From Escherichia coli (GTDB taxonomy: Bacteria; Pseudomonadota; Gammaproteobacteria; Enterobacterales; Enterobacteriaceae), in the NCBI RefSeq assembly GCF_009931435.1, contig NZ_CP043414.1: a DNA stretch of 64,000 bases; one strand, 5' to 3'. A program made the position numbers. Shown here piece by piece: positions 15,001 through 17,354 of this stretch. The number at the start of each line of letters is the position of its first letter. The first letter of the stretch is position 1.

Positions 15001-17354
15001 ACGGACGATTTACTGCGTAAGCTGTACGATCAGTTACGCAACAGCGGCAGCAGCTTCTCGCTGGTTTACTTTTCTGACCACGGTCTGGCCTTTAAAGAGC
15101 GCGGCAAAGACGTGCAATACCTTGCCCATGATGATAAATATCAGCAGAATTTCCAGGTGCCTTTTATGGTCATTTCGAGCGACGATAAAGCGCATCGGGT
15201 GATTAAAGCCCGCCGCTCTGCCAATGACTTCTTAGGCTTTTTCTCCCAGTGGACGGGAATTAAAGCGAAGGAAATTAACATCAAATACCCGTTTATCTCT
15301 GAGAAGAAAGCCGGGCCGATATATATCACCAACTTCCAGTTACAGAAGGTAGATTACAACCATCTCGGAACCGATATTTTCGACCCGAAACCTTAAAAAC
15401 AAAAATCCGCCCCGAGAGGCGGATTTTTTATATCACCGAAGTGATTAGAAGCGGTAACCAACACCGGCAATCCAGGTGCCTACGTCAACGCTACGAATAC
15501 GGCTCTGCTCGTAAGAGAAGTCCAGAGCAACGTTTTCCATCGGGTTAAACTGCAGACCTGCACCGTAGGAGAAACCGTAGTCGCTGGTGTCGTGTTTGTA
15601 GGTCGGGTATTCAGTGGTCTGGAATTTACCGTAACCCACACCCACTACACCGTAGATGCTTGCCCAGTCGTTAATGCGGTAAGCCGGACCAGCAGTGATG
15701 CCGTAGTACTGGTTTTTGTTGTAGTCACCAGAGCTTGCAGTACGGCTTTTCTCGGTGTAAGTGAAAGAACCGATCACACCCAGCGGGCTGTTGTCTTCTT
15801 CATAGCGGTATTTCAGGTTGAAACCGCCCATTTTGTTCATTTGGCCCTGAGCGTCGCTCTGTGCGTAACCGCCAGTTACGGTAGAAGTCGCAGCTACGGA
15901 AGTACCTGCGGTGAAAGCCAGAACTGCGGCCAGTGCTGAAAGACATGCAATTTTTTTCATAACCACCTCAAATGTGATTCAAATAAGTCCTAAGTTTTAA
16001 ATATATCAAAAATTAATGGGAAACTCTTCGCGATTTATGATGTCTAACGGGCCATTTCATGTAACAGAACGTTTCCATACACCGCTATCCATCTAAATTT
16101 AAATCACTTTTTCAGAGAACTGCGTAAGTATTACGCATGTATTCCCTGTCATTCATCCAGATTATTCCTAATCACCAGACTAATGATTCCATCAATCCTG
16201 GCGCATTTTAGTCAAAACGGGGGAAAATTTTTTCAACAAATGCTCAACCAGCATTGGGTATATCCAGTACACTCCACGCTTTACTTAGGTTTAGATATTT
16301 GTGGGAGAAAGGATGCCTGGTTCATTACGTAAAATGCCGGTCTGGTTACCAATAGTCATATTGCTCGTTGCCATGGCGTCTATTCAGGGTGGAGCCTCGT
16401 TAGCTAAGTCACTTTTTCCTCTGGTGGGTGCACCGGGTGTCACTGCGCTGCGTCTGGCATTAGGAACGCTGATCCTCATCGCGTTCTTTAAGCCATGGCG
16501 ACTGCGCTTTGCCAAAGAGCAACGATTACCGCTGTTGTTTTACGGCGTTTCGCTGGGTGGGATGAATTATCTTTTTTATCTTTCTATTCAAACGGTCCCA
16601 CTGGGTATTGCGGTGGCGCTTGAGTTCACCGGACCACTGGCGGTGGCGCTGTTCTCTTCTCGTCGCCCGGTAGATTTCGTCTGGGTTGTGCTGGCGGTTC
16701 TTGGTCTGTGGTTCCTGCTACCGCTGGGGCAAGACGTTTCCCATGTCGATTTAACCGGCTGTGCGCTGGCACTGGGAGCAGGGGCTTGTTGGGCTATTTA
16801 CATTTTAAGTGGGCAACGCGCAGGAGCGGAACATGGCCCTGCGACGGTGGCAATTGGTTCGTTGATTGCAGCGTTAATTTTCGTGCCAATTGGAGCGCTT
16901 CAGGCTGGTGAAGCACTCTGGCACTGGTCGGTTATTCCATTGGGTCTGGCGGTCGCTATTCTCTCGACCGCTCTGCCTTATTCGCTGGAAATGATTGCCC
17001 TCACCCATTTGCCAACACGGACATTTGGTACGCTGATGAGCATGGAACCGGCGCTGGCTGCCGTTTCCGGGATGATTTTCCTCGGAGAAACATTGACACC
17101 CATACAGCTGCTGGCGCTCGGCGCTATCATCGCCGCTTCAATGGGTTCTACGCTGACAGTACGCAAAGAGAGCAAAATAAAAGAATTAGACATTAATTAA
17201 ATTTACATTTCTGCATGGTTATGCATAACCATGCAGAATTTCTCGCTACTTTTCCTCCACACCGTCTTTATATATCGAATTATGCAAAAGCATATTTATT
17301 CCGAAAATTCCTGGCGAGCCAATAAATAAGAATTGTTCTTATCAATATATCTAA

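What the first reader, a model, noticed from the sequence alone, without database searches (positions are those of the whole stretch)
17209..17238. Perfect 30-bp palindrome immediately after rhtA
A 15+15 perfect inverted repeat with no spacer is unusual for a simple terminator and could form a cruciform or act as a dimeric protein-binding site in the rhtA-dps intergenic region.
Basis: seen in the sequence. Interest (0 to 1): 0.2.

Follow-up and report, generated by a model that had tools for sequence, protein, structure and literature searches.

The report
Conserved RNA hairpin ending rhtA
The perfect 30-bp palindrome is real, but comparison across about 70 enterobacterial species indicates an ordinary RNA stem-loop at the end of the rhtA message, most likely a transcript-end and stability element, not a DNA cruciform or a protein operator.

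Summary
TTCTGCATGGTTATG|CATAACCATGCAGAA sits at 17209-17238, 8 nt after the rhtA stop. It is far beyond chance and is a single-copy locus in 5365 of 5426 complete E. coli genomes.

It is not an Escherichia oddity. In 69 of 77 Enterobacteriaceae species with rhtA-dps synteny, a strong hairpin starts 2-16 nt after the rhtA stop, often with a different sequence.
- 11 of 13 stem pairs show compensatory changes.
- Arm spacing varies.
- One-sided changes are mostly G·U on the rhtA sense strand.

This points to selection on an RNA structure, not on a dsDNA operator or cruciform. The "zero spacer" is a 13-bp stem whose 4-nt loop (UGCA) happens to be self-complementary, and only in Escherichia.

No U-tract follows the hairpin (mean 2.6 T in 8 nt, never 6 or more). 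Instead there is a C-rich, G-poor stretch. This matches the published class of U-less protective stem-loops at Rho-dependent 3' ends better than a canonical intrinsic terminator.

The repeat itself is already in the literature, as the centre of a weak in-vitro Dps footprint. No mapped rhtA 3' end was found in the tables I could search. Interest is low: it is a new member of a known kind.

The parts
16313..17200 (+). rhtA coding sequence (threonine/homoserine exporter), stop TAA at 17198-17200
   Evidence: ORF. Translation gives 295 aa. RefSeq annotation of near-identical E. coli DNA.
17209..17238 (+). Perfect 15+15 palindrome. As RNA: 5' arm 17209-17221, loop UGCA 17222-17225, 3' arm 17226-17238 (13 bp, dG -18.7 kcal/mol).
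   Evidence: Structure conserved with covariation.
17239..17298 (+). C-rich, G-poor tract directly after the hairpin (15 C, 5 G in 60 nt). Candidate Rho-loading (rut-like) region; this role is inferred.
   Evidence: The same skew (C 23.7%, G 11.1%) holds in 64 of 68 distinct orthologous tails and is weaker in the rest of the spacer (19.7% / 15.7%).
17398..17456 (+). Conserved proximal dps promoter block (CTATTAGTGTGATAGG at 17398-17413; GGTGCTATACTTAGT at 17442-17456). It is context, not part of the hairpin element, and is separated from the hairpin by about 160-170 nt of unconserved DNA.
   Evidence: Alignment A2.
17499..18002 (+). dps coding sequence
   Evidence: 100% identical to K-12 Dps. 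Annotation.

Best explanation
The palindrome is the DNA image of an RNA stem-loop at the 3' end of the rhtA mRNA. When rhtA is transcribed, a 13-bp hairpin forms 8 nt after the stop codon. I infer that it defines and protects the mature 3' end of the rhtA transcript against 3'-to-5' exonucleases. Together with the C-rich, G-poor tract just downstream, it would form a Rho-type terminator. Transcription from rhtA would then not run on into the dps promoter about 220 nt further on. Shown here: the hairpin, its position, its conservation by compensatory change, its sense-strand G·U bias, the absence of a U-tract, and the C>G skew downstream. Inferred: Rho involvement, exonuclease protection, and insulation of dps.
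For: 1. A hairpin of 9-17 bp (median 14, dG -13 to -27) starts 2-16 nt (median 8) after the rhtA stop in 69 of 77 syntenic Enterobacteriaceae species.
2. The sequence differs between genera while the fold is kept. Escherichia has TTCTGCATGG/CCATGCAGAA, E. albertii TTTTGCATGG/CCATGCAAAA, Kosakonia TTCAGCATG/CATGCTGAA, Buttiauxella TTTACCGTGG/CCACGGTAAA, and Cedecea CATTTAATGCGG/CCGCATTAAATG.
3. On the 32-sequence alignment A1, 11 of 13 pairs changed on both sides. 87.7% of cells are paired, against 30-42% when the partner column is slid, and 0 of 500 shuffles reach any of the five measures. RNAalifold recovers the same helix.
4. One-sided changes are G·U on the + strand in 18 cells, against 3 A·C. 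A strand-blind count of internal mismatches gives G:T 13 and A:C 5, three of the five from one doubtful hairpin. The + strand RNA is the more stable in 41 of 60 unique hairpins and the - strand in 11.
5. No U-tract follows: the mean is 2.6 T in the next 8 nt and none has 6 or more. The tail is not conserved even within Escherichia.
6. The 60 nt downstream are C 23.7% and G 11.1%, with C>G in 64 of 68 distinct tails.
7. [quoted passage not shown]
8. The spacer has only two conserved islands, the hairpin and the proximal dps promoter. Species with a shortened 115-130-nt spacer keep the dps promoter but lack the hairpin.
Against: No experimental 3' end or Rho-dependent region at MG1655 8491xx appears in the Term-seq and bicyclomycin tables of Adams et al. 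2021, which do list the dps terminator at 848340. I suspect, from my own knowledge and untested here, that rhtA is too weakly expressed to be listed, so this is absence of evidence.

The independent G·U events are few: about 8 against 2 after collapsing lineages, by my own count. G·T is also tolerated in single-stranded DNA hairpins.

In E. coli the tail UUUCU gives some intrinsic-terminator character.

The outer arm TTCTGCATG is conserved across several genera more than pure pairing strictly requires.

C>G skew is a weak predictor of rut.

Six species lack the hairpin, so it is dispensable.
Confidence: 0.55

Rival explanations
1. The hairpin is by itself the factor-independent (intrinsic) terminator of rhtA, with a degenerate U-tract. 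RNA polymerase releases the transcript a few nucleotides after the stem without Rho.
For: A stable stem-loop sits directly after the stop codon. In E. coli the tail begins UUUCU and has a second run, CUUUUCC, 12 nt later. A few species have more conventional versions, for example Klebsiella oxytoca AGGCCCTGA...TCAGGGCCT followed by TTGATTCAT. The same RNA-level covariation and sense-strand G·U bias fit this reading equally well.
Against: The defining U-tract is missing. The consensus scan did not call the site, while it called the dps terminator. The window has 4 T in 8 nt; the mean is 2.6 across 67 orthologous hairpin-plus-tail sequences, with only three at 5 and none at 6 or more. The stem base is A-U rich (…CAGAA) rather than G-C rich. 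The tail is not conserved even among Escherichia species, whereas the stem is.
Confidence: 0.25
2. The palindrome acts as DNA. Under negative supercoiling it extrudes a cruciform or otherwise offers a branched structure that Dps binds, tuning the topology and output of the dps promoter (the proposal of Antipov et al. 2017).
For: [quoted passage not shown] The repeat is perfect and A+T-rich. Each strand folds as DNA with dG about -13 kcal/mol.
Against: By the authors' own description the footprint was only 'several protected bands', and the distal fragment bound Dps less well than the promoter fragment. Perfect symmetry exists only in Escherichia; elsewhere loops are 3-13 nt. Mismatches are biased to G:T on one strand, which a duplex or cruciform reading does not predict. 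About 160-170 nt of unconserved DNA separate the hairpin from the conserved dps promoter. Species that lost the hairpin keep the dps promoter.
Confidence: 0.08
3. The two 15-nt arms are half-sites of an operator for a dimeric transcription factor that regulates rhtA or dps.
For: There is perfect dyad symmetry. The outer arms TTCTGCATG/CATGCAGAA are conserved in Escherichia, Salmonella, Citrobacter, Enterobacter, Lelliottia and Silvania while the flanks have diverged.
Against: Spacing between the conserved arms varies by 6 nt or more. Changes are compensatory rather than conservative. Other genera have unrelated sequences at the same place. The 30-mer is a single locus in each E. coli genome, so no regulon-like set of sites was seen. 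The site lies downstream of rhtA and about 235 nt upstream of the dps start site.
Confidence: 0.04

Closest known systems
[quoted passage not shown]
   Same: An energetically stable stem-loop sits just after the coding region, no uridine-rich tail follows, and C-rich, G-poor sequence lies immediately downstream.
   Different: Rho dependence, the steady-state 3' end and exonuclease protection have not been shown for rhtA. No entry for this site was found in the 3'-end tables I could search.
Canonical intrinsic (Rho-independent) terminator, for example the dps terminator in the same window (18042-18066 followed by TTTTGTTTTG)
   Same: Both are a hairpin directly downstream of a stop codon, on the sense strand, conserved by compensatory change.
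   Different: There is no U-tract, the stem base is A-U rich, and only 5 of 13 pairs are G-C. The consensus scan calls the dps terminator but not this site.
REP/BIME extragenic palindromes
   Same: Both are an extragenic palindromic sequence after a gene that can stabilise upstream mRNA.
   Different: REPs are dispersed multi-copy elements with a shared consensus. This 30-mer is a single locus per E. coli genome, and Rfam has no matching family.
Dps contact site in the distal dps regulatory region (Melekhov 2015; Antipov 2017)
   Same: It is the same physical sequence: 'a 30 bp inverted repeat' at the centre of the region 216-281 bp upstream of Pdps.
   Different: Those papers treat it as a DNA structural element for Dps. 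The comparative evidence here points to selection on the rhtA-sense RNA fold.

Membership tests
Canonical intrinsic terminator | Stable stem-loop immediately downstream of the gene on the sense strand | tested here: met
   13-bp stem, 4-nt loop, dG -18.7 kcal/mol, z = -5.9, 8 nt after the stop codon.
Canonical intrinsic terminator | Uridine tract (about 5 or more U in the 8 nt following the stem) | tested here: not met
   The window tail is TTTCTCGC, 4 of 8, and the scan did not call it. Across 67 orthologous hairpin-plus-tail sequences the mean is 2.6, three reach 5, and none reaches 6.
Canonical intrinsic terminator | Factor-independent release of RNA at the site | not testable with these tools
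   This needs in-vitro transcription. Published Term-seq tables list no 3' end here.
Rho-dependent terminator with protective 3' stem-loop | Stable stem-loop not followed by U-rich sequence | tested here: met
   The class is defined in the PMC6061677 abstract.
Rho-dependent terminator with protective 3' stem-loop | C-rich, G-poor (rut-like) RNA immediately downstream | tested here: met
   The window has 15 C and 5 G in 60 nt. C exceeds G in 64 of 68 distinct orthologous tails, and the skew is stronger than in the rest of the spacer. This is a composition test only.
Rho-dependent terminator with protective 3' stem-loop | Bicyclomycin- or Rho-sensitive read-through, and a steady-state 3' end at the stem base | tested here: inconclusive
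   The Adams 2021 supplementary tables hold no entry at 8489xx-8492xx apart from dps-internal ends. rhtA is probably too weakly expressed under those conditions. The Dar & Sorek tables are not held.
REP/BIME repeat | Many dispersed copies per genome | tested here: not met
   There is one locus per genome in 5365 E. coli genomes; the two 'places' are the two strands of the same palindrome. No further copy occurs in the window with 3 or fewer mismatches beyond chance.
Dimeric transcription-factor operator | Fixed spacing and sequence-conserved half-sites | tested here: not met
   Arm spacing varies from about 10 to 16 nt. 11 of 13 pairs covary. Distant genera have unrelated arms.
Cruciform / Dps-bound structural DNA | Symmetry selected at the DNA level (no strand bias in tolerated mismatches; short or absent spacer) | tested here: not met
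   Internal mismatches are G:T 13 against A:C 5. In the alignment there are 18 G·U cells against 3 A·C cells. Loops are 3-13 nt outside Escherichia.
Cruciform / Dps-bound structural DNA | Protein footprint or extrusion demonstrated | not tested
   Only the literature bears on this: weak in-vitro Dps DNase I protection. No in-vivo extrusion data were found.

The most novel reading that the evidence does not exclude
The hairpin has two roles. It serves as the rhtA 3' RNA stem-loop. In Escherichia, where it has become a perfect spacer-less palindrome, it also serves as an extrudable DNA structure bound by Dps that feeds back on dps promoter topology. Alternatively, it represents a conserved class of U-less hairpins with U-rich 5' arms and A-rich 3' arms that insulate a stress promoter from upstream transcription by a mechanism that is neither classical intrinsic nor Rho-dependent termination.
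Probability: 0.07. Interest if true: 0.45.

Novelty: new member of a known kind. Interest (0 to 1): 0.15.

Why it matters
It matters little beyond annotation. The result gives rhtA, a gene used in threonine-production strains, a defined 3' end element. It separates that element from the dps regulatory region. It also cautions that the '30 bp inverted repeat' used as a model Dps target is most likely maintained for an RNA function of the upstream gene. The locus would be a clean, phylogenetically well-supported test case for U-less protective stem-loops at Rho-dependent ends.

Tried and rejected
- **Rfam scan:** at E ≤ 10 over 16000-18500 the only hit on the hairpin was a spurious plant miRNA-precursor match (E = 0.91, 19 bits against a gathering score of 95).
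- **Dispersed-repeat idea:** rejected. The 30-mer is a single locus per E. coli genome, and half-site matches in the window are at chance level.
- **Search for a mapped rhtA 3' end or Rho-dependent region:**
  - The Adams 2021 tables have nothing at 8491xx.
  - The TERMITe supplements have no hit.
  - The supplements of Dar & Sorek 2018, Choe 2022, Grünberger 2022, Herzel 2022 and Conway 2014 are not held as text.
  - Full-text searches for rhtA with 'terminator', 'bicyclomycin' or 'inverted repeat' gave nothing relevant.
- **NtrC and MntR operator resemblance:** considered from memory and dropped. The spacing and sequence do not fit, and the ATAGC..GCTAT-type box lies at the proximal dps promoter, not at the palindrome.
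- **RNase III substrate:** considered and dropped on general knowledge, because a 13-bp stem is too short.
- **Frame error:** my first translation of rhtA and dps used wrong frames. This was corrected.

Full report
**Observation**

The sequence at 17209-17238 is TTCTGCATGGTTATG|CATAACCATGCAGAA, a perfect 15+15 inverted repeat with no spacer. It cannot be extended.
- It is the longest perfect palindrome in the window. The expected number of such palindromes is 6e-5 per 64 kb, and 100 shuffles never exceeded 12-nt arms.
- It lies 8 nt after the TAA stop of a 295-codon ORF (16313-17200) and 261 nt before the ATG at 17499.
- RefSeq annotation of E. coli DNA that is 98-99.8% identical calls these genes rhtA and dps.
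- In MG1655 the palindrome is at 849172-849201.
- The exact 30-mer, or at least 28-29 nt of it, is present in 5365 of 5426 complete E. coli genomes, at one locus each. The two 'places' per genome are the two strands of the same palindrome. It is therefore not a dispersed repeat.
- Rfam has no family for it.

**Anatomy**

As RNA, either strand folds into a 13-bp stem with a 4-nt loop (dG -18.7 kcal/mol, z about -5 to -6). As DNA the dG is about -13 kcal/mol. The 'zero spacer' simply means that the 4-nt loop UGCA is itself self-complementary.

The tail on the rhtA sense strand is UUUCUCGCUACUUUUCC. The consensus terminator scan called the dps terminator (18042-18066 followed by TTTTGTTTTG) but not this site.

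**Comparative evidence**

I anchored on Dps and fetched 80 species-representative loci from Enterobacteriaceae. 77 of them keep rhtA directly upstream of dps. I folded the 75 nt after each rhtA stop.
- A hairpin of 9-17 bp (median 14; dG -13 to -27) starts 2-16 nt (median 8) after the stop in 69 of 77 loci by a strict routine. Two more have interrupted hairpins.
- The fold is conserved but the sequence is not.
  - E. albertii has TTTTGCATGG…CCATGCAAAA, a double compensatory change that keeps the palindrome perfect.
  - Citrobacter, Salmonella, Enterobacter and Lelliottia keep the outer arms TTCTGCATG/CATGCAGAA but replace the inner stem and loop, with 10-16 nt between the arms.
  - Kosakonia and Phytobacter have TTCAGCATG/CATGCTGAA.
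  - Buttiauxella has TTTACCGTGG/CCACGGTAAA.
  - Cedecea has CATTTAATGCGG/CCGCATTAAATG.
  - Klebsiella and Raoultella have other G+C-rich stems.
- On an alignment of 32 distinct alignable hairpins (A1), 11 of 13 pairs show changes on both sides. 87.7% of cells are standard pairs, against 30-42% when the 3' partner is slid by 1-3 columns. No shuffle out of 500 reaches any of the five measures.
- RNAalifold recovers the same helix, with 8 of 10 pairs compensated.

**RNA or DNA, and which strand**

- One-sided changes in A1 are almost all G·U or U·G when read on the + (rhtA sense) strand: 18 cells. A·C, which would be G·U on the other strand, accounts for 3 cells.
- A strand-blind search that scores only Watson-Crick pairs finds internal mismatches G:T 13, A:C 5 and other 6. 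Three of the A:C cases come from one doubtful extension in L038.
- After collapsing lineages this is roughly 8 independent G·U events against 2.
- The + strand RNA is the more stable in 41 of 60 unique hairpins and the - strand in 11. The helix boundaries in that test came from the + strand fold, which biases it somewhat.
- Together with the variable arm spacing, this argues for selection on an RNA, or at least single-stranded sense-strand, fold. It argues against a duplex operator or a symmetric cruciform.

**What kind of RNA element**

The U-tract that defines an intrinsic terminator is absent. The 8 nt after the stem hold on average 2.6 T. Three of 67 distinct hairpin-plus-tail sequences have 5 and none has 6 or more. 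The tail differs even among Escherichia species while the stem is kept.

Instead, the 60 nt downstream are C-rich and G-poor.
- The figures are C 23.7% and G 11.1%.
- C exceeds G in 64 of 68 distinct tails.
- The window itself has 15 C and 5 G.
- The skew is stronger than in the rest of the spacer, which is 19.7% C and 15.7% G.

This is the anatomy that Dar & Sorek (PMC6061677) describe for E. coli Rho-dependent transcripts. Their steady-state 3' ends lie just downstream of stable stem-loops that lack U-rich tails. Those stem-loops protect against PNPase and RNase II, and rut sites sit immediately downstream.

I therefore read the palindrome as the rhtA 3'-end stem-loop of a Rho-type terminator. 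That step is inferred, not shown. The alternative is that the hairpin works as a weak, non-canonical intrinsic terminator on its own, which remains quite possible for E. coli, where the tail begins UUUCU.

**Relation to dps**

An alignment of whole spacers from 16 genera (A2) shows only two conserved islands.
- The first is the hairpin.
- The second is the proximal dps promoter and 5' UTR, from about 100 nt upstream of the ATG: CTATTAGTGTGATAGG at 17398-17413 and GGTGCTATACTTAGT at 17442-17456.

About 160-170 nt of unconserved sequence lie between the two islands. Pseudocitrobacter and Trabulsiella, with spacers of 115-130 nt, and Klebsiella indica, with a 217-nt spacer, lack the hairpin. The short-spacer genera retain the dps promoter. 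The hairpin is therefore not an obligatory part of dps control.

**What the literature says**

The repeat is already on record. Antipov et al. [quoted passage not shown] They speculate that the contact affects promoter topology. The underlying footprint (Melekhov et al. 2015, PMC4433220) was 'only several protected bands', and the distal fragment bound Dps less well than the promoter fragment. That is a weak in-vitro contact of a protein that binds most DNA. It does not explain the covariation pattern.

I found no published 3' end or Rho-dependent region for rhtA. The Adams et al. 2021 tables list the dps terminator end at 848340 and dps-internal ends but nothing at 8491xx. The other supplements were not held or had no hit.

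**Verdict**

The best explanation is a conserved RNA stem-loop that ends and protects the rhtA transcript, probably within a Rho-dependent terminator. It is a new, well-supported member of a known kind, and interest is low.

Noticed in passing
window 19430-19449: The second-longest perfect palindrome in the window is GTGGTTGGATATCCAACCAC (10+10). It lies inside the ORF 19291-19950, which is glnP by synteny.
   Followed up: no
L002 about 2232-3018 (E. coli HS30-1); window equivalent about 17311/17312: One E. coli strain carries an IS1X2 insertion in the rhtA-dps spacer. It sits 73 nt downstream of the palindrome and upstream of the dps promoter, and leaves the hairpin intact.
   Followed up: partly
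L008 (Marinobacter sp. BW6, 703-bp contig) and L078 (Streptomyces polyasparticus, 573-bp contig): Two tiny contigs in non-enterobacterial assemblies encode Dps that is 92-97% identical to the E. coli protein. This is most likely enterobacterial contamination of those assemblies.
   Followed up: no
hairpins of L004-L083 and window 17209-17238: Across genera the 5' arms are T-rich (37% T) and the 3' arms are A-rich (34% A). This polarity is the opposite of the A-tract/U-tract arrangement of bidirectional intrinsic terminators. It is unexplained and may be partly phylogenetic inertia.
   Followed up: partly
window 17398-17413 and 17442-17456: CTATTAGTGTGATAGG and GGTGCTATACTTAGT are nearly invariant across 16 genera. 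From memory, and untested here, these are presumably the OxyR/MntR-type operator region and the extended -10 of the dps promoter.
   Followed up: no
window 18042-18075: The canonical dps intrinsic terminator is an 11-bp stem followed by TTTTGTTTTG. It coincides with the strong Term-seq 3' end at MG1655 848340 in Adams et al. 2021. It gives a weak sub-threshold Rfam hit to ctRNA_p42d (26 bits against a gathering score of 50), which is probably just terminator likeness.
   Followed up: partly
window 18220-18270: Repeated TGCACC/GGTGCA-like motifs lie upstream of glnH (seen). From memory, and untested here, these are presumably the NtrC sites of glnHp2.
   Followed up: no
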